Below are positions 24,553 to 29,734 of a stretch of DNA of 64,000 nt, piece by piece. How positions within the stretch are numbered: position 1 is the stretch's first letter; every line of letters begins with the position of its first letter. Under the pieces are notes generated by a model. It had not been told where the DNA came from, ran no database searches, and saw only the letters and a program-made list of their open reading frames with translations. Origin of the DNA: Candidatus Latescibacterota bacterium (GTDB taxonomy: Bacteria > Latescibacterota > UBA2968 > UBA8231); contig CBDFJF010000001.1 of the NCBI GenBank assembly GCA_965248265.1, positions 960,001 through 1,024,000 on the forward strand, given 5' to 3'. A program made the translations under genes and the position numbers.

Positions 24553-25623
24553 ATGAATCGCAATCATAGGAAGAGAAGGGCACTCACACGGCGTGTCGGC
24601 GCACTGTGCTGTGTGCTCTTCTCAATCCCAGCTTCCCGAGCGGCTGAATCAACCCAGTTGGGCATCTGCTGGGTCGCGGCAACCGAACCCGTGGGGTTGG
24701 AAGACTTCGAGCCACTGCTACGCAATCGAATCAATTGGATCTCCCAGACCACATTTGGCTGGCATCGCGATGCTCGTTCCCCCAAGATTCAACTGCGGCC
24801 GGATGCAGACTGGTGGGGTGAAAGTGACGCTGGAATAATTCAAACCGCAGCATTAGCTCGACAAGCTGGGATCAAAACATTGCTGAAACCCCACATCTGG
24901 GGGCGCCACTGGAGCGGTGATATTGCGATGCGCAGCGAGTCCGCGTGGAGTGAGTGGTTTGAAAACTACCGGAAGTTTGCTCTGCACTACGCCAATCTGG
25001 CCGAGAATGCGGGCATTGAGGCCTTTTGTATTGGAACGGAATTGCAGGGCACTACAATGCGCGAGAATGATTGGCGAGCCATTATCGCCGACGTTCGCAA
25101 GGTATACAAGGGACCGTTGATGTACGCGGCGAATTGGAGTGGAGAATTTGAGCAGGTCCGGTTTTGGGATGCGCTAGACTTCATTGGAATCCAGGCGTAT
25201 TTTCCGGTCGCTGAGCGCGAGAATCCGACCGTTCCGGAAATGCTGCTAAAATGGGAGGAGCACATAGCCCGCATAGAGGCTGTTCACAAAGCATACAAGA
25301 AGCCCGTCGTGATCACGGAAGTGGGTTATCGAAGTGAATCGAATACGGCAATCCGCCCTTGGGAATGGGAACCGCCTCAGCCGGGTGAGCAGTCTGATAC
25401 TGAAGGCTTCACTCAAGAAGGCCTTGAGACACAGGCTGATTGCTACCAGGCATTTTTCAAAGCCTTGTCGGGAAACGCCTGGCTTGCGGGAACGTACATA
25501 TGGAAGTGGCATCCTCCGCCCAACGAAAGGGCCATGCGATCCCCGGGTCCTTTTACTCCACAGGGCAGGCCTGCAGAGGCAGTCCTGAGAAATTGGTATC
25601 ATCGGATGGCGATATCAGACTGA
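24553..25623 (+). CDS. Glycoside hydrolase family 113-like protein
   Basis: LLKPHIW, CIGTEL, YAANW, LDFIGIQAYFP, ITEVGYRS, WKW. Confidence 0.85.
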   Translation: MNRNHRKRRALTRRVGALCCVLFSIPASRAAESTQLGICWVAATEPVGLEDFEPLLRNRINWISQTTFGWHRDARSPKIQLRPDADWWGESDAGIIQTAALARQAGIKTLLKPHIWGRHWSGDIAMRSESAWSEWFENYRKFALHYANLAENAGIEAFCIGTELQGTTMRENDWRAIIADVRKVYKGPLMYAANWSGEFEQVRFWDALDFIGIQAYFPVAERENPTVPEMLLKWEEHIARIEAVHKAYKKPVVITEVGYRSESNTAIRPWEWEPPQPGEQSDTEGFTQEGLETQADCYQAFFKALSGNAWLAGTYIWKWHPPPNERAMRSPGPFTPQGRPAEAVLRNWYHRMAISD

Positions 25624-25706
25624 TTCCTTTTGCTCAACGCAGTTTACCCCCTAAGCCGTCTTGAAGGCTTTTGGCCGTTGGTAGCGGTCACTCGACAGGA
25701 GTACAT

Positions 25707-26546
25707 GTGCGAATCGGACTGATATCAGACACTCATTGTCCGCAGCGATGTCCACACTACCCCGCCACGCTTGGTCAGGTATTTCGTGCAGTCGACCTGA
25801 TCCTGCATGCGGGAGATGTGGGTGAGCTCTGGGTGTTGGAGGCACTCGGCAACATCGCACCTGTTGTTGCTGTCCACGGAAACGATGAGACTGATGAAGC
25901 TCAGCGCCAGTTGCCCTTTGAGCAGATCGTATCAGTCGAGGGGAGGCGGTTACTCCTATCCCACGGCCACGAGACGAGCCAAGAACGGGAGCTCGAGGCA
26001 CGAGCCGGTGACGCCTGGCCCCCGAAGCTGGAGAGGCGCCTGAAACGGGCTAAAGACGCAGATGCGGAGATCTTCATACATGGCCATACCCATATCCCTA
26101 TGTGCTGGACCAAGACTGGACTCACCTTGATCAACCCTGGCGCGATTGCTTCGTGCAACGCAATCTCTCGACAGGTAACCCAGACCGTTGCGATTCTCGA
26201 TATCGCTGGAAATGGGTCACCGCGCGTCCGGCACATCGACCTGTCCAAGCCAGATGCACCGTTTGATCCGCGTTTCGACGTCAAATCCGGCTTCAGGAAT
26301 TCGTTGGCGCGTTTCTCGGAATCGATTGCGGAGCCTGAGATTGAGAATTGCCTGACGCGCGACTGGTTGGATGGCCTCGAGGATTTCGGGGCGTTCAGGG
26401 CATGTTGCCTGCGTCTTTCTCACGAATGTTGGCGTGGCGAGCGACAACAGATCACTGTGCTTGACGTTATTGCTGCTGTCAGGAATGACCCGAAAGTCAC
26501 AAACAGGGACAAGGAAAGGTGTGAAGCCGTGTTCACGGAGATGTGA
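25707..26546 (+). CDS. Metallophosphoesterase (YfcE-like)
   Basis: ISDTH, HAGD, HGND, HGH, HGHTH, INPG; GTG start after AGGAG. Confidence 0.85.
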   Translation: MRIGLISDTHCPQRCPHYPATLGQVFRAVDLILHAGDVGELWVLEALGNIAPVVAVHGNDETDEAQRQLPFEQIVSVEGRRLLLSHGHETSQERELEARAGDAWPPKLERRLKRAKDADAEIFIHGHTHIPMCWTKTGLTLINPGAIASCNAISRQVTQTVAILDIAGNGSPRVRHIDLSKPDAPFDPRFDVKSGFRNSLARFSESIAEPEIENCLTRDWLDGLEDFGAFRACCLRLSHECWRGERQQITVLDVIAAVRNDPKVTNRDKERCEAVFTEM

Positions 26547-26560
26547 TTACCGCCCCATCC

Positions 26561-26589
26561 TTGACAACGTGCCTGACGCATCGGATATT
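26561..26589 (+). promoter_or_regulatory. sigma70-type promoter of the Gln-leader/tRNA operon
   Basis: TTGACA 26561-26566, 17 bp, GATATT 26584-26589; expected +1 falls at about ATG 26597. Confidence 0.65.
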
Positions 26590-26596
26590 GCGTGGC

Positions 26597-26680
26597 ATGA
26601 GAAATAGCCGCCTTCAGCGTCAGCAACAACAGCAACAGCGAATCCAGAGTTCGTTGGGGCAGCGGCCATCTATGTATTAG
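26597..26680 (+). CDS. Gln-rich attenuator leader peptide MRNSRLQRQQQQQQRIQSSLGQRPSMY
   Basis: 27 codons, 9 Gln, six consecutive (CAG CAA CAA CAG CAA CAG, 26621-26638); overlaps the antiterminator segment; directly upstream of two tRNA-Gln genes. Confidence 0.85.
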   Translation: MRNSRLQRQQQQQQRIQSSLGQRPSMY

Positions 26681-26702
26681 CACGACTGCAAATACTGAGA
26701 TT

Positions 26703-26743
26703 AAAAGCCCCAGCGGACCTTGAGTTCGTTGGGGCTTTTTTTT
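26703..26743 (+). terminator. Intrinsic terminator (attenuator) upstream of the tRNA genes
   Basis: gccccagcggac-cttga-gttcgttggggc followed by T8; the 3' arm gagttcgttggggc is repeated exactly at 26647-26660. Confidence 0.9.
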
Positions 26744-26748
26744 GTTCT

Positions 26749-26820
26749 TGCGGCGTCGTCTAACTGGCAGGATGGCAGGTCCTGACCCTGCAGATCGAGG
26801 TTCGAATCCTCGCGCCGCAG
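26749..26820 (+). tRNA. trnQ: tRNA-Gln (anticodon CTG), atypical C33, CCA not encoded
   Basis: Acceptor TGCGGCG/CGCCGCA, G73; anticodon stem GCAGG/CCTGC, loop TC-CTG-AC; T arm CGAGG-TTCGAAT-CCTCG; followed by CCG. Confidence 0.88.
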
Positions 26821-26831
26821 CCGAATATCGC

Positions 26832-26906
26832 TGGGGTGTCGTCTAACTGGCAGGACACCGGGCCTTGGACTCGGGAATCGGGGTTCGAACCCTCGCACCC
26901 CAGCCA
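26832..26906 (+). tRNA. trnQ: tRNA-Gln (anticodon TTG), atypical C33
   Basis: Acceptor TGGGGTG/CACCCCA, G73, CCA; anticodon stem CCGGG/CTCGG, loop CC-TTG-GA; T arm CGGGG-TTCGAAC-CCTCG. Confidence 0.9.
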
Positions 26907-26958
26907 AATCCGAACTGAAGACACGGTACTGGAGTAATCGGTGCTTACGGAGACTGCG

Positions 26959-27897
26959 ATGTCAACTCAAGATATTCTTGTCCGCGGCGAGCAGCCGGGA
27001 GACGAGAGCCAAATTGACTTGGTCCTCAGCCGCGCATTCGACGGCATGGACGAGGCCAACCTCGTCCGCATGCTGCGGCACAGACAGCCCGGTTTTGATC
27101 GATCCCTGTGTATATGCGCGTTTGTTGGCGACGTCATGGTAGGGTATACCGGCTTCATCCCTTTCGGCATGCGATTGATGGACTCCAGCGTTTCTGCGGT
27201 CGCTGTCGCGCCCGTCGCAGTTGCCCCAGATTTTCAGCGCCGGGGTATCGCCGGCATGATGCTGCGCCGTGGCCACGAAGTAGCACAAGAGGCCGGCTAC
27301 AGGCTCGCCTGCCTCAACGGCCATCCCGACTATTATCCTCGCCACGGCTACATCGCATGCTTCGGCTTCTGCAAGACAATGCTGGATCTCGACGTGTTAC
27401 CCGCGCCACGTATCGAACTGGAGGCCTGGCCTGTACAGGCGGACGATATTGCCTGGTTGATAGGATGTGATGAACGTGAGTGGCATAGTGTCGATTTCAC
27501 CTGGCCGCGAAGCAACGGACTCTGTGAGTGGGCCATCGAGGGGGTCAATGCCGTGATGTGGCGGGCTCGAGACGGGCGACGGGCAGCCTACAGCCTCTGT
27601 CGGCCCGGTCTGCGCGGACCTGGCCGACACCTGGAAACTCTCCTGGGGGACGACCCCGAACTCGTGCAAGAGGTGATTGCCCACATTAAACCTGGAAGAA
27701 TTACGAATCATCCCGCGGGATGGCTTGCGAAAAATGTTCTAAACGAGTCGTGGGCAAAGTGCGAAGCCAATAGCAGTCAGGCGGCGATGGCATATCCTCT
27801 TGTTGACGGCGTGCTTGACCCATATCTTGCCGCCCTCGAATCGGGACAACGTCAAGCGGGCACCTGCAACTGGCCTGTGCCATTCATAATGTGTTGA
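26959..27897 (+). CDS. GNAT-family N-acetyltransferase (YhbS/Eis-like N-terminal domain)
   Basis: VAPVAVAPDFQRRGIAGMML, GHPDYYPRHGY; GGAG RBS before ATG 26959, 52 bp after the second tRNA. Confidence 0.85.
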   Translation: MSTQDILVRGEQPGDESQIDLVLSRAFDGMDEANLVRMLRHRQPGFDRSLCICAFVGDVMVGYTGFIPFGMRLMDSSVSAVAVAPVAVAPDFQRRGIAGMMLRRGHEVAQEAGYRLACLNGHPDYYPRHGYIACFGFCKTMLDLDVLPAPRIELEAWPVQADDIAWLIGCDEREWHSVDFTWPRSNGLCEWAIEGVNAVMWRARDGRRAAYSLCRPGLRGPGRHLETLLGDDPELVQEVIAHIKPGRITNHPAGWLAKNVLNESWAKCEANSSQAAMAYPLVDGVLDPYLAALESGQRQAGTCNWPVPFIMC

Positions 27898-28099
27898 GAT
27901 CGCCGGTTGACGGAGACATGACGAGCTTTTGCGTTGGAGTTGCCCTCGTCACTCGGCCGTCTGTCAGGGCGTCAATCTGCTCAGTTACGGTCCGACCCTG
28001 GTTCTTTAGCTCCGTTCGGCGCTTATTAAGGTTGCCGATTAACTCGTCGGCCCCAGACAATGCCACCGTCCACCCTCCAGAATCCGTTGAGGTTTGACC

Positions 28100-29734
28100 A
28101 TGAACTCGGACACCTACACCGTGAACCACTGGAACGAGGCAGCGCGCGCGCAAGAGCGCTCAATTCTTACAGCGGAGCAGAACTTTACCTTTGATGCGCT
28201 CGGGTTCGTCGTGCTGCCGCAGGTCCTCAGCCTGGCCGAACTGTCCGCGTGCCGCGACAGCAGCGATGGGCTGGGCGACCTCTGCGGCGAGGCCGGCACC
28301 GTCGGGCGCTACGTGCGTGAGCTGTGCCGCGATGGCTTTCGCCAGGACGGCCATGTGAGGCACGTCCCAGCCGGCGCCGCAGGAGGACACGACCAGGCCT
28401 CGCTGCCACTGGAAGGCGGGGTGGATACGCTGGATCGGGCCTACATCAACCTAACGGGGTGGAATGGCCGCAACGCCGATGGAGCTTCGCTCTCGCGGGC
28501 CGGCGGCGACTGGGAAGAGGTCCGCATCCGGCAGTGCCAGGGCTTGGTGGTGGTCGTCGCACTCACGGAGTCTGCAGGTGGCACGTGCCCGCTGGTAGTA
28601 GTACCCGCTACGCACAAGAGCGGGCTGCCTGCCCCGCCGATTCCGTCCTCCAGCCCGTTCGCTGAACGCCCGGTGCTGGCGGCCGGCGACGTGCTGCTGT
28701 GCGCCGCCAGCACGCTGCACGGGGTCTGCCCGCAAGGTGCTGGTGGTGAGCTGCTCATCGTAAATTTCATCTCGCGCTCGGCTCGGCCACAGGTGCCACC
28801 CGAACAGCAGGACGAGGCATCCCTGCCTGCCTGGGCGGAAGAGCTCGGCGAGGCTGAGCGAACCGTGCTGGCGGGCGGCGACTCGCGTCGCGTGCTCCTG
28901 TCGGACGGTACTGCCACCTGGCTGACGCCTGCAGACGATGCCGACGTGGCGCAGCGGGCCTCCTCCCCCCTCGAGTTCGGACGCGGAGACGACGACGCCG
29001 AGCGCTGGGCGTTCGACACCCACGGCTATCTATTGGTTGAGGGCGTCATGGACGATGACTGGATCGATGCGGCCGTGGCGGGCATCGACGCCAACCTCGA
29101 TCGCATGGTGTACCGAGGCACAGGGGACAAGCTTGACGGGGACGTGACGCTTGCTGACATCCCCGGGGCGCCGACGATCTCGGGCACGGGGCGGCCTGAC
29201 CTGAGAGACTTGTTTCAGCTACCGACGCCGCACAATGCGCCTTTCCTCAAAATGCTGGCGCATCCGGCCGTCATCCAGCGCCTGAACTGGATGATTGGAG
29301 CAGGTTACCGGGTAACTCAGAACACGGCCCTGTGCCACGTCAAAGGCTCGAGCGGGCAGATGCTGCACTCGGGAAACGCCAACCCGACCTGCATCGGCAA
29401 GCACTACGAGATGGTGAACGGGCGCGTGCACACGAGGTCAGGCATCAACGTCGCTTGGCAGCTCACCGACGTCGGGCCCGACGATGGCGGGTTTGTCGTA
29501 GTGCCGGGCACTCACAAATCTTGCTACCCTCTGCCGCACTCGGTGCGGACGTGTAACGAGCGCGCTCCGATCCGCCACGTTCCCATGCGTCGCGGGTCTG
29601 TTCTCTTCTTTTTGGGTGGAACTGTCTGTCACGGAGCGTACCGCTGGGAGGCTGAGTTACCGAGGCGGACAGCGCTCTTCACGTACGGGCACGACGCTCG
29701 GCGCCCTTTTGCATGGCCCTCGAGCAAACTGTGA
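28100..29734 (+). CDS. Tandem phytanoyl-CoA dioxygenase-family protein (two domains)
   Basis: Two FDxxG(F/Y) starts, VVPATHKS and VVPGTHKS, TLHG and VCHG. Confidence 0.8.
   Translation: MNSDTYTVNHWNEAARAQERSILTAEQNFTFDALGFVVLPQVLSLAELSACRDSSDGLGDLCGEAGTVGRYVRELCRDGFRQDGHVRHVPAGAAGGHDQASLPLEGGVDTLDRAYINLTGWNGRNADGASLSRAGGDWEEVRIRQCQGLVVVVALTESAGGTCPLVVVPATHKSGLPAPPIPSSSPFAERPVLAAGDVLLCAASTLHGVCPQGAGGELLIVNFISRSARPQVPPEQQDEASLPAWAEELGEAERTVLAGGDSRRVLLSDGTATWLTPADDADVAQRASSPLEFGRGDDDAERWAFDTHGYLLVEGVMDDDWIDAAVAGIDANLDRMVYRGTGDKLDGDVTLADIPGAPTISGTGRPDLRDLFQLPTPHNAPFLKMLAHPAVIQRLNWMIGAGYRVTQNTALCHVKGSSGQMLHSGNANPTCIGKHYEMVNGRVHTRSGINVAWQLTDVGPDDGGFVVVPGTHKSCYPLPHSVRTCNERAPIRHVPMRRGSVLFFLGGTVCHGAYRWEAELPRRTALFTYGHDARRPFAWPSSKL

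What the first reader, a model, noticed from the sequence alone, without database searches (positions are those of the whole stretch)
26561..27897. Gln-sensing leader-peptide attenuator controlling two tRNA-Gln genes and a GNAT: candidate new tRNA-rescue system
Seen: TTGACA-17-GATATT promoter; ATG at the expected +1 (leaderless); 27-codon ORF with 9 Gln codons, six in a row, mixing CAG and CAA. A 14-nt segment in the ORF (gagttcgttggggc, 26647-26660) is identical to the 3' arm of the downstream terminator (26722-26735), so it can capture the 5' arm (26707-26718) as an antiterminator. Upstream segments gccgccttcagcg (26607-26619) and cagcgaat (26636-26643) can sequester it. After the T8 tract come tRNA-Gln(CUG), tRNA-Gln(UUG) and a GNAT. 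Established: this is the trp/his/pheM-pheST type of ribosome-mediated attenuation, normally controlling biosynthesis or synthetase genes. Inference: stalling on Gln codons induces the two tRNAs that read those same codons, forming a feedback loop against loss of functional Gln-tRNA (anticodon nucleases, tRNA-modifying toxins, GatCAB/GlnRS inhibitors or nitrogen starvation). I know of no described peptide attenuator whose regulated genes are the cognate tRNAs.
Basis: partly seen in the sequence, partly recalled or inferred. Interest (0 to 1): 0.95.

Follow-up and report, generated by a model that had tools for sequence, protein, structure and literature searches.

The report
Gln-codon attenuator controlling spare tRNA-Gln genes
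A short glutamine-rich leader peptide and a switchable terminator sit in front of an extra pair of glutamine tRNA genes, so the cell probably makes these tRNAs only when ribosomes slow down at glutamine codons; this feedback design is known for enzymes, but I could find no report of it for tRNAs.

Summary
There is a sigma-70-like promoter, an ATG 7 nt after the -10 box, a 27-codon ORF with 9 Gln codons, and a 12-bp terminator with a T8 tract. The terminator's 5' arm can instead pair with a 14-nt segment inside the ORF. Two tRNA-Gln genes follow 5 nt after the T tract.

Comparative data support a real ribosome-mediated Gln attenuator:
- The same module (promoter, start, Gln/Arg-rich ORF, antiterminator/terminator, then 1-3 tRNA-Gln genes) occurs in two other Latescibacterota genomes and one metagenome contig. 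The flanking genes differ and the pairing is kept by changed bases.
- A related Gln-rich leader precedes glnS (GlnRS) in 9 of 70 family genomes examined.
- Covariance models built from either set find the other set.

The regulated tRNAs are extra copies. All three genomes also keep a conserved housekeeping tRNA-Gln pair.

The GNAT is not a conserved partner: 11 orthologous loci have no tRNA. No defence signal was found, so the "tRNA-rescue system" reading is unsupported speculation.

Eight full-text searches found no paper on a leader peptide controlling its cognate tRNA genes.

Verdict: a new variant of a known kind. All evidence is computational and no RNA data exist.

The parts
26561..26589 (+). 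Promoter: -35 TTGACA, 17-nt spacer, -10 GATATT
   Evidence: 10 of 12 matches. The equivalent hexamers are TTGACG-17-TACATT in G118, TTGACG-16-TACATT in G119 and TTGCGC-17-TACATT in L093. In each case the hexamer ends 7-8 nt before the ATG.
26597..26680 (+). Leader ORF, 27 codons, MRNSRLQRQQQQQQRIQSSLGQRPSMY*. Probably leaderless (inference).
   Evidence: In-frame homologues of 30, 30 and 27 codons start from a conserved ATGAG. The length differences before the Gln block are 0, +9 and +3 nt.
26615..26647 (+). Regulatory codon block: Gln codons 7, 9-14 and 17, interspersed with Arg codons
   Evidence: The homologous loci have 7, 4 and 7 Gln codons at the same place relative to the structure.
26636..26643 (+). 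Segment 1 (anti-antiterminator). It pairs with 26649-26656. The outer pairs are 26607-11 with 26662-66.
   Evidence: MFE structure. A ribosome stalled on Gln codons 9-14 would cover this segment (the footprint size is recalled).
26647..26661 (+). Segment 2, the antiterminator strand inside the ORF. It is a 14-nt copy of the terminator's 3' arm.
   Evidence: The best duplex with the 5' arm is -23.5 kcal/mol at leader nt 52-65. It was reached by 0 of 1000 shuffles.
26707..26718 (+). Segment 3, the terminator's 5' arm, shared by the antiterminator and the terminator
26724..26743 (+). Segment 4, the terminator's 3' arm (26724-26735), plus the T8 tract (26736-26743)
26749..26822 (+). Accessory tRNA-Gln(CUG), anticodon loop UCCUGAC with C at position 33
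   Evidence: The housekeeping copy lies elsewhere at C1:2954702-2954775.
26832..26906 (+). Accessory tRNA-Gln(UUG), anticodon loop CCUUGGA with C at position 33
   Evidence: The housekeeping copy lies at C1:3010250-3010324.
26959..27897 (+). GNAT acetyltransferase. It is probably co-transcribed here by read-through, because no terminator or promoter was found between it and the tRNAs. It is not part of the conserved module.

Best explanation
This is a ribosome-mediated (leader-peptide) transcription attenuator that senses how fast Gln codons are decoded. It controls an extra, divergent pair of tRNA-Gln genes.

Proposed mechanism:
1. Transcription starts at or near the A of the ATG, so the leader is probably translated as a leaderless mRNA.
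2. If Gln-tRNA(Gln) is plentiful, the ribosome runs through the Gln/Arg block and over segment 2 (or segment 1 re-pairs with segment 2). Segments 3 and 4 then form the terminator, and transcription stops at the T8 tract 5 nt before the first tRNA.
3. If Gln-tRNA(Gln) is scarce, the ribosome stalls on the Gln run. It covers segment 1 and leaves segment 2 free to capture segment 3 as soon as that is made. The terminator cannot form, RNA polymerase reads into the tRNA genes, and RNase P releases the tRNAs.

The result is negative feedback on the supply of tRNA-Gln. Sister genera use a related leader to control glnS, so the sensor has two alternative outputs that both raise Gln-tRNA(Gln) formation.

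Shown by computation: the sequence elements, their conservation, the alternative pairings, and the fact that the regulated tRNAs are spare copies.

Inferred only: translation of the ORF, the start site, the stalling, and the regulatory outcome.
For: 1. Anatomy. All parts of a classical attenuator are present and ordered correctly.

2. Conservation.
- A D-arm pattern search over 168 genomes of the phylum found the module in 3 of them: G000, G118 and G119.
- A metagenome scan of 22 stretches found 1 more, L093.
- All four share the promoter spacing, the ATGAG start, an in-frame Gln/Arg-rich ORF of 27-30 codons, and a terminator. Then follow 2, 2, 1 and 3 tRNA-Gln genes.
- The flanking protein genes differ in all four.

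3. Pairing kept by changed bases.
- RNAalifold on the four leaders returns the antiterminator helix as the consensus: 10 pairs, 2 of them with changes on both sides.
- The 5'-arm-versus-upstream duplex is -19.5 to -23.5 kcal/mol and lies inside the ORF just after the Gln block. It was reached by 0, 4, 8 and 6 of 1000 shuffles.
- In folds of the transcript truncated before the 3' arm, with a ribosome masked on the Gln run, the 5' arm pairs upstream in 4 of 4 loci.

4. Link to glnS.
- Model R1, built from the tRNA-linked leaders, hit leaders in G024, G124 and G127 (E 1.5e-6 to 0.008) that precede glnS (TIGR00440 at 693 bits).
- Direct inspection found a Gln-rich ATG ORF plus terminator before glnS in 9 of 70 genomes. 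All 9 show the same alternative pairing in stalled-ribosome folds.
- Model R2, built from the glnS leaders only, finds the window leader full length (E 3.2e-5) and the G118 leader (E 7.6e-4).

5. The same family has further cognate-codon leaders. Asn-rich leaders occur at 14 loci; the aspS gene is confirmed downstream at one of them and AspRS-like N-termini are seen at six others. G000 itself has a Thr-rich leader before thrS.

6. The tRNAs are spare copies. G000, G118 and G119 also hold housekeeping tRNA-Gln(UUG) and (CUG) genes that are 97% identical across genera.

7. Metagenome contigs from two other studies carry diverged copies of leader plus tRNA. The differences listed inside the ORF are a synonymous T>C at 26614 and inserted bases that add up to 3 nt. 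A T>C at 26729 turns a G-U pair of the terminator into G-C (47 further differences were not shown).
Against: - There is no expression data. No RNA run is listed for this DNA.
- There are only four full loci, from related organisms, so the covariation counts are small.
- On full-length leaders, equilibrium folds keep the terminator at nearly every masked stall position. The antiterminator wins only in kinetic, truncated-transcript folds.
- In 3 of 4 loci the truncated transcript forms the antiterminator even without a ribosome. A ribosome parked at the stop codon does not cover segment 2. Termination in Gln-replete cells therefore depends on timing that I cannot model.
- Arg codons are also enriched (5, 4, 6 and 5 per leader). 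Part of the CAGCG repetition is forced by the pairing itself.
- G119 has only 4 Gln codons.
- 4 of 9 glnS leaders have weak antiterminator duplexes, reached by 141-277 of 1000 shuffles.
- In Streptomyces ilvB, a leader peptide with alternative structures did not respond to mutation of its candidate regulatory codons (passage in PMC1262725).
- More tRNA cannot cure true glutamine starvation.
- Both window tRNAs have C33 instead of the near-universal U33, so their decoding capacity is uncertain.
Confidence: 0.7

Rival explanations
1. The switch is real but is read by a trans-acting factor rather than by a stalling ribosome. A protein or an RNA (for example tRNA-Gln itself, or GlnRS) would bind the spaced CAGC/CAGCG repeats and decide between antiterminator and terminator, as TRAP or a T-box does. 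The ORF would then be incidental.
For: The Gln block is also a set of CAGC repeats at 6-9 nt spacing. Gln and Arg codons alternate in L093 and G119. Equilibrium folds do not need a ribosome to form the antiterminator in 3 of 4 loci.
Against: - The repeats are in frame with a conserved ATG in 4 of 4 tRNA-linked and 9 of 9 glnS-linked leaders.
- The length differences before the block are multiples of 3.
- Stop codons fall at a conserved place relative to segment 2.
- The same family has Asn-rich and Thr-rich leaders before aspS and thrS. This fits codon sensing and not one binding motif.
- No T-box or glutamine-riboswitch match was found in Rfam at E up to 1.
Confidence: 0.1
2. The leader is a separate small gene (a Gln-rich micropeptide or a small RNA) with its own efficient terminator. 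The tRNAs are made constitutively at a low level by leaky read-through or from an unrecognised promoter. There would be no Gln-dependent control.
For: The terminator is strong (12 bp plus T8, -26 kcal/mol). Part of the peptide is conserved (QR.QQ..R(I/M)Q.S(L/P)G). An Rfam sRNA family (NsiR1) gives a weak sub-threshold hit on the terminator (25.5 bits against a cut-off of 39).
Against: - Only 0-17 nt separate the T tract from the tRNA in the four loci, and no promoter-like site was found there.
- The peptide conservation coincides with the RNA segments that must pair.
- This reading does not explain the conserved antiterminator, or why a related leader precedes glnS.
Confidence: 0.08
3. One reading: an inducible tRNA-rescue or defence module, in which the GNAT and the tRNAs act together against tRNA-targeting toxins or nucleases.
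For: - The regulated tRNAs are spare copies about 25% different from the housekeeping pair.
- 3 of 9 accessory tRNAs carry C33 in the anticodon loop, which might alter recognition by loop-cutting enzymes (the enzyme idea is recalled, not tested).
- The GNAT has no terminator before it.
- A diverged metagenome contig also has the GNAT after the tRNA.
Against: - GNAT orthologues at 11 loci lack any tRNA.
- The other three module copies are followed by unrelated genes.
- There is no PADLOC match for the GNAT or its neighbours, apart from one weak methyltransferase hit at E 0.0096.
- No viral copies were found.
- C33 is absent from L093 and G119.
- The sister sensor controls an ordinary housekeeping enzyme, GlnRS.
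Confidence: 0.07
4. A chance arrangement: a random ORF in a structured tRNA-operon leader, with the terminator belonging to the upstream phosphoesterase gene.
For: A single promoter-like hit is within chance expectation. GC-rich DNA gives many open frames.
Against: The module recurs with four different upstream genes. 8 Gln in 12 residues is unique among the 57 tRNA upstream regions. Shuffle tests and reciprocal model hits also argue against chance.
Confidence: 0.02

Closest known systems
pheM-pheST attenuator of E. coli and the candidate trpS and leuS attenuators of Streptomyces (leader-peptide attenuators of aminoacyl-tRNA synthetase genes)
   Same: It has a short ORF with a run of cognate codons, mutually exclusive antiterminator and terminator hairpins, and an output that belongs to the charging machinery for the same amino acid. 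The glnS-linked leaders of sister genera are direct analogues. Sources: PMC1262725 passages; pheM itself is recalled.
   Different: Here the regulated genes are the cognate tRNAs themselves, not a protein. No translation of the downstream product is involved, and RNase P must free the tRNA from the leader. The amino acid (Gln) and the phylum (Latescibacterota) are new for this mechanism as far as my searches reach.
trp, his, leu, thr and pheA biosynthetic operon leaders
   Same: The four-segment logic is the same, and the regulatory codons sit just 5' of, or overlapping, segment 1 (recalled textbook model; geometry checked).
   Different: The output does not make the amino acid. The start is probably leaderless. 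The stop codon lies about 18 nt beyond segment 2, so a ribosome parked at the stop does not occlude it.
T-box riboswitches
   Same: Both sense the charging state or supply of a specific tRNA and control genes of the same amino-acid system by antitermination.
   Different: There is no specifier loop or T-box sequence and no Rfam match. Sensing here would go through the ribosome. T-boxes are not known to control tRNA genes (recalled).
Extra tRNA genes carried by phages and mobile elements to replace depleted host tRNAs
   Same: Spare, divergent isoacceptor copies exist besides a conserved housekeeping set.
   Different: These copies are chromosomal, no viral copies were found, and expression appears to depend on demand through a cis-acting sensor.

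Membership tests
Ribosome-mediated (leader-peptide) transcription attenuator | Short ORF with a start codon close to the transcription start, upstream of the regulated gene | tested here: met
   There is a 27-codon ATG ORF 7 nt after the -10 box. In-frame homologues exist in 3 of 3 other loci. Translation itself is not shown.
Ribosome-mediated (leader-peptide) transcription attenuator | Cluster of regulatory codons cognate to the regulated function | tested here: met
   The four leaders have 9, 7, 4 and 7 Gln codons and are followed by tRNA-Gln genes. The cluster is unique among the 57 tRNA upstream regions of the genome.
Ribosome-mediated (leader-peptide) transcription attenuator | Intrinsic terminator between the leader ORF and the regulated gene | tested here: met
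   A 12-bp GC-rich stem plus T8 lies 5 nt before the tRNA. Terminators of -19 to -26 kcal/mol are present in all 4 loci.
Ribosome-mediated (leader-peptide) transcription attenuator | Antiterminator that uses the terminator's 5' arm and a segment just 3' of the regulatory codons | tested here: met
   found in 4 of 4 loci, reached by 0-8 of 1000 shuffles, with 2 compensatory pairs.
Ribosome-mediated (leader-peptide) transcription attenuator | Anti-antiterminator (1:2) pairing that a ribosome stalled on the regulatory codons would disrupt, giving termination by default | tested here: inconclusive
   The 1:2 pairing is in the MFE of the window, L093 and G119. In truncated folds without a ribosome, however, the antiterminator already wins in 3 of 4 loci.
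Ribosome-mediated (leader-peptide) transcription attenuator | Read-through depends on translation of the leader and on the supply of the charged cognate tRNA | not testable with these tools
   No RNA runs are listed. Reporter or in vitro assays are needed.
T-box riboswitch | Specifier loop, T-box sequence and Stem I fold (Rfam T-box model) | tested here: not met
   The Rfam scan of 25500-28500 at E up to 1 gives only two tRNAs and two sub-threshold, unrelated hits.
Glutamine riboswitch (glnA RNA / Downstream-peptide motifs) | Match to the Rfam models of these motifs | tested here: not met
   No such hit at E up to 1.
Anti-phage defence or tRNA-repair system including the GNAT | Conserved co-occurrence of the protein with the tRNAs, or a match to known defence families | tested here: not met
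   11 GNAT orthologue loci have no tRNA. The GNAT has no PADLOC match.

The most novel reading that the evidence does not exclude
The module is an autonomous "tRNA insurance" circuit. The housekeeping tRNA-Gln pool is monitored by translation of the Gln-rich leader. When that pool is lost, for example through an anticodon-loop nuclease or a modifying toxin, a sequence-divergent spare set is switched on. Some of the spare tRNAs have the unusual C33 loop, which might escape such enzymes. More broadly, cells could regulate individual tRNA species by cognate-codon attenuation, a direct autoregulatory loop for tRNA abundance.
Probability: 0.15. Interest if true: 0.9.

Novelty: new variant of a known kind. 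Interest (0 to 1): 0.78.

Why it matters
Bacterial tRNA genes are usually described as controlled globally, by growth rate and the stringent response (recalled). A cis-acting sensor that reads the decoding speed of one codon family and sets transcription of exactly the tRNAs that read it would be isoacceptor-specific feedback on tRNA supply.

It would extend the oldest known RNA-based control mechanism to a new class of target.

It would also show the same sensor driving either the synthetase (glnS) or the tRNA in related genera. That is a natural experiment on which component limits Gln-tRNA(Gln) formation. GlnRS needs bound tRNA to activate glutamine (recalled), so more tRNA could raise charging flux.

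The element is about 150 nt long and self-contained. It could be tested in a heterologous host or in a cell-free system, and reused as a sensor of decoding capacity.

The finding also documents leader-peptide attenuators for glnS, aspS (with Asn codons) and thrS in Latescibacterota, a phylum that, as far as I recall, is known only from environmental sequence.

Tried and rejected
- **DNA search in relatives.** A search of 41 relatives with the whole region found only tRNA-level matches. The genus has no other genome.
- **First combined pattern.** My first pattern used too short a gap and found nothing in the window. It was corrected.
- **Metagenome scan.** 21 of 22 stretches were ordinary tRNA-Gln genes of AT-rich organisms without a leader.
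- **Genome-contig scan.** 31 of 32 stretches were chance matches without tRNA-Gln. The one real hit is G118 itself.
- **Viral contigs.** There were 2 chance matches in coding sequence with no tRNA, and 0 matches for the tRNA pattern.
- **R1 hits at E 0.1-0.95** (G159, G130, G154) lie in coding-like sequence.
- **NsiR1 (Rfam).** The hit is below threshold and covers only the terminator, so it was rejected.
- **Other tRNAs of G000.** None has a cognate-rich leader.
- **Crude genome-wide scan for leader-plus-terminator in G000.** It gave 13 hits, and the Gln leader ranked second. The one hit I checked (Thr-like, C2:2163265) lies inside a coding ORF. The rest were not checked. The scan missed the thrS leader because that leader's T tract is interrupted.
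- **glnS of G000 and of genus g19** (3 genomes) has no Gln leader.
- **aspS of G000.** The best match is only 44% identical to the leader-linked aspS and has no Asn leader.
- **Sequencing runs.** No RNA holder is listed. The runs laid were contigs only, so they say nothing about starts, ends or expression.
- **L093's own record** could not be searched for glnS because it is not held.
- **thrS-leader antiterminator.** My script picked the wrong hairpin arm, so that test is void.
- No supplementary files were consulted.
Full report
**1. What is in the window**

- TTGACA (26561), a 17-nt spacer, GATATT (26584-26589).
- ATG at 26597, 7 nt after the -10 box.
- A 27-codon ORF, MRNSRLQRQQQQQQRIQSSLGQRPSMY, with stop TAG at 26678-26680. 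It has 9 Gln codons (6 CAG, 3 CAA), six of them consecutive.
- The 14-mer gagttcgttggggc at 26647-26660, and again at 26722-26735 as the 3' arm of a hairpin.
- The hairpin's 5' arm at 26707-26718, followed by T8 at 26736-26743.

The scans and annotation tools agree:
- The consensus scan finds this promoter-like site (the only one in 26000-28500) and the terminator.
- ARAGORN and Rfam find tRNA-Gln(CUG) at 26749-26822 and tRNA-Gln(UUG) at 26832-26906.
- The next ORF, 26959-27897, is a GNAT.
- The leader is much more structured than shuffles: -58.7 kcal/mol, z = -5.09.
- Its minimum-energy fold holds a 1:2 hairpin (26636-43 with 26649-56, closed by 26607-11 with 26662-66), a small central hairpin, and the terminator.

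**2. The tRNAs are spare copies**

The window lies in a 7.3-Mb, two-contig genome with 57 tRNA genes.
- The genome has a second tRNA-Gln(CUG), behind two tRNA-Ser genes, and a second tRNA-Gln(UUG). These differ from the window pair at about a quarter of positions.
- These other two are the housekeeping set. Copies 97% identical occur in G118, G119 and G015 of another genus. The UUG copy keeps its upstream neighbour across the family.
- Of the 57 tRNA upstream regions, only the window pair has a cognate-rich ORF: 8 Gln in 12 residues.

**3. Homologous loci**

No close relative exists, and a DNA search of 41 relatives matched only the tRNAs. Three further copies came from other searches.
- Searching 168 genomes of the phylum for the shared D-arm of the two tRNAs (up to 2 mismatches) found two more loci, in G118 and G119, a different genus of the same family.
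- One metagenome scan of 22 stretches added L093.
- A leader-based scan of GTDB species genomes (32 stretches) recovered only G118. Its record title names Candidatus Latescibacterota.

All four loci share these features:
- A -35/-10 pair with 16-17 nt spacing.
- ATGAG starting 7-8 nt after the -10 box.
- An ORF of 27-30 codons with 9, 7, 4 and 7 Gln codons, interleaved with Arg codons.
- A GC-rich terminator with a T run.
- Then 2, 2, 1 and 3 tRNA-Gln genes, beginning 0-17 nt after the T run.

The length differences between the ATG and the Gln block are 0, +9 and +3 nt, which keeps the frame. The flanking protein genes are unrelated in the four loci:
- Window: phosphodiesterase upstream, GNAT downstream.
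- G118: PcRGLX-like upstream, PhyH-HEAT downstream.
- G119: M48 peptidase upstream, PhyH (convergent) downstream.
- L093: M4 peptidase upstream, UmuD-UmuC downstream.

So the terminator belongs to the leader-tRNA module and not to an upstream gene.

Logan contigs from two further studies carry diverged copies of the leader plus the first tRNA. The differences listed within the ORF are a synonymous change at 26614 and inserted bases that add up to 3 nt (47 further differences were not shown).

**4. The alternative pairing**

- RNAalifold on the four leaders returns the long-range antiterminator helix as the consensus: 10 pairs, 2 with changes on both sides.
- The core changes across loci while staying complementary:
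  - Window: GTTGGGGC with GCCCCAGC.
  - G118: GCCGGGGC with GCCCCGGC.
  - G119: CCGCCGGG with CCCGGCGG.
  - L093: the pair contains G-U intermediates.
- The best duplex between each terminator 5' arm and everything upstream lies inside the ORF, 10-14 nt after the Gln block. It has -19.5 to -23.5 kcal/mol and is reached by 0, 4, 8 and 6 of 1000 shuffles.
- I folded the transcript truncated before the 3' arm, with a ribosome masked on the Gln codons. In 4 of 4 loci the 5' arm pairs with segment 2.

Results against the simple model:
- On full-length RNA the terminator stays the equilibrium structure at nearly all stall positions.
- In 3 of 4 loci the truncated RNA forms the antiterminator even without a ribosome.
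- A ribosome at the stop codon does not cover segment 2.

Termination in replete cells must therefore rest either on the moving ribosome covering segment 2 while segments 3-4 are made, or on fast 1:2 pairing. I cannot compute either.

**5. The link to glnS**

- A covariance model of the four leaders (R1), run on 76 genomes of the family, hit three further leaders (E 1.5e-6, 0.006, 0.008). These are followed not by tRNAs but by glnS (TIGR00440 at 693 bits).
- I then inspected the region upstream of glnS in 70 genomes: 30 loci (examined), 39 regions (one only 132 nt long), and G000. Three other matches lie at contig edges and were not examined.
- Nine genomes have an ATG ORF of 19-25 codons with 4-6 Gln in ten residues, followed by a terminator. 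They are G127, G013, G024 and G136 in one genus, and G122, G123, G124, G125 and G014 in another.
- All nine show the 5' terminator arm pairing with the 3' end of the ORF in stalled-ribosome folds. The duplex is beyond shuffles in only four or five of them: 2-9 of 1000 in four, 52 in one, and 141-277 in four.
- G120 and G121 have a hairpin and T run but only 2-3 Gln, and remain ambiguous.
- G000, G118 and G119, which have the tRNA-linked leader, have no Gln leader before glnS. The nine glnS-leader genomes had no match to the accessory tRNA D-arm. Most genomes have neither, and relatives are not independent, so I draw no statistics from this.
- A second model built from the nine glnS leaders alone (R2) finds the window leader over its full length (E 3.2e-5, 31.7 bits) and the G118 leader (E 7.6e-4).

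The two sets are therefore related in sequence and design.

**6. The family uses this mechanism more widely**

R2's weaker hits turned out to be other leader-peptide attenuators:
- 14 loci have an Asn-rich leader (3-4 consecutive Asn codons) plus a terminator. At L232 the downstream gene is aspartate-tRNA ligase (NF001750, 654 bits). Six further loci show a similar N-terminus. At the remaining seven the script returned another frame or none.
- Three loci have a Lys/Asn-rich leader before asd.
- G000's own thrS is preceded by a 44-codon ORF with 7 Thr codons and a 22-bp hairpin.

This makes ribosome-mediated attenuation of translation genes a habit of this lineage. It raises my confidence that the Gln leader works the same way.

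**7. What the GNAT is**

- The GNAT has only an Eis-like N-terminal acetyltransferase domain.
- Full-length orthologues (43-61% identity) at 11 loci in other genomes have no tRNA within about 1.5 kb.
- None of the neighbours matches a defence family, apart from one weak methyltransferase hit at E 0.0096.
- In the window there is no terminator or promoter-like site between the tRNAs and the GNAT. One diverged metagenome contig also has the GNAT after the tRNA. It may therefore ride on read-through transcripts in this lineage, but it is not part of the conserved module.

**8. Mechanism and meaning**

The best-supported reading is a classical attenuator whose regulatory codons are Gln codons and whose output is transcription of spare tRNA-Gln genes. 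Slow decoding of CAG/CAA leads to read-through. That gives more tRNA-Gln, faster decoding and then termination.

Sister genera connect the same sensor to GlnRS. Both outputs raise the rate of Gln-tRNA(Gln) formation. GlnRS needs bound tRNA to activate glutamine (recalled), which gives extra tRNA a plausible benefit even when the amino acid is limiting.

What triggers the switch in nature is open. It could be nitrogen limitation, growth transitions, or loss of tRNA.

The anticodon loops of both window tRNAs, and of the G118 CUG tRNA, have C at position 33, where U is near-universal. This is confirmed by the Rfam alignment (with U33 in the housekeeping pair). The other six accessory tRNAs have U33. 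I cannot explain this.

**9. Comparison with what is known, and novelty**

- Leader-peptide attenuators of synthetase genes are known or predicted: pheST (recalled), and trpS and leuS in Streptomyces (passages of PMC1262725).
- A predicted structured 5' UTR of glnS in Shewanella is listed as a "tRNA synthetase leader" in PMC2659441 (passages).
- Eight full-text searches found no paper describing a leader peptide that controls tRNA genes, or a Gln-codon leader for glnS. I saw the other listed papers only as search listings. PMC3082878 was checked for its single "tRNA operon" passage, which is unrelated.
- The library lacks most subscription-journal papers, so older work may exist.

I classify the tRNA-linked element as a new variant of a known kind. 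The glnS, aspS and thrS leaders are new members of a known kind.

**10. Limits**

Everything here is computational. No RNA run is listed for this DNA, and the runs laid were contigs.

Noticed in passing
window 26781 and 26864: Both accessory tRNA-Gln genes have C at position 33 of the anticodon loop (UCCUGAC and CCUUGGA). The housekeeping tRNA-Gln genes, and tRNAs generally, have U there. The G118 CUG tRNA also has C33. The accessory tRNAs of G119 and L093 and the G118 UUG tRNA have U33. A Logan contig identical to the window over 26400-27400 carries the same bases.
   Followed up: partly
L147:1278-1415 (G024), L136:2998-3119 minus strand (G127), L162:1273-1396 (G124) and six more: Gln-rich leader ORFs of 19-25 codons with a terminator and antiterminator lie upstream of glnS in 9 of 70 family genomes examined. 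This is a candidate Gln attenuator of GlnRS.
   Followed up: yes
L232:1501-1635 (G155) and 13 other loci: An Asn-rich leader (3-4 consecutive AAT/AAC codons, ending in LRVF) plus a terminator. At L232 the downstream gene is aspartate-tRNA ligase. Asn codons controlling aspS would fit a non-discriminating AspRS feeding the GatCAB route to Asn-tRNA(Asn). That is an inference and was not tested.
   Followed up: partly
G000 contig C2:3011308-3011535 (outside the window): The window's own genome has a 44-codon ORF with 7 Thr codons (6 within 12 residues). It is followed by a 22-bp hairpin (-42 kcal/mol) and TTTCGTTT, just upstream of thrS. This is a candidate Thr attenuator of ThrRS. My antiterminator test picked the wrong hairpin and is void.
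   Followed up: partly
L243:1501-1652 (G157), L242 (G012), L238 (G023): A leader ORF rich in Lys, Asn and Thr codons, plus a terminator, lies upstream of aspartate-semialdehyde dehydrogenase (asd).
   Followed up: no
G000 contig C1:672047-672361 (outside the window): A 315-nt copy (82% identity) of the 3' end of the GNAT gene and the sequence just after it (window 27644-27955). It looks like a remnant of a second copy and has no tRNA or leader.
   Followed up: no
G000 contig C2:1057951-1058029, complement: ARAGORN reports a tRNA with a four-base anticodon (ttct) next to a second tRNA-His gene. The arrangement mirrors the tRNA-Arg(tct)/tRNA-His pair on contig C1.
   Followed up: no
L008, L010, L011 (genus g19, another family of the class), with L211-L213: tRNA-Gln(UUG) lies directly downstream of glnS in these genomes. 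That glnS has no Gln leader in the 3 genomes examined. An old linkage of glnS and tRNA-Gln might explain how one leader came to serve both, but this is speculation.
   Followed up: partly
L009 about 1290-1480 (G029): A long tandem array of the heptamer GCTGACT sits immediately upstream of a housekeeping tRNA-Gln(UUG).
   Followed up: no
window 28094-29734; L096:4949-6427; L129:241-1305: A PhyH-family dioxygenase gene lies next to the leader-tRNA module in 3 of 4 loci, on varying strands. These genomes may hold many PhyH paralogues, so this may be chance.
   Followed up: no
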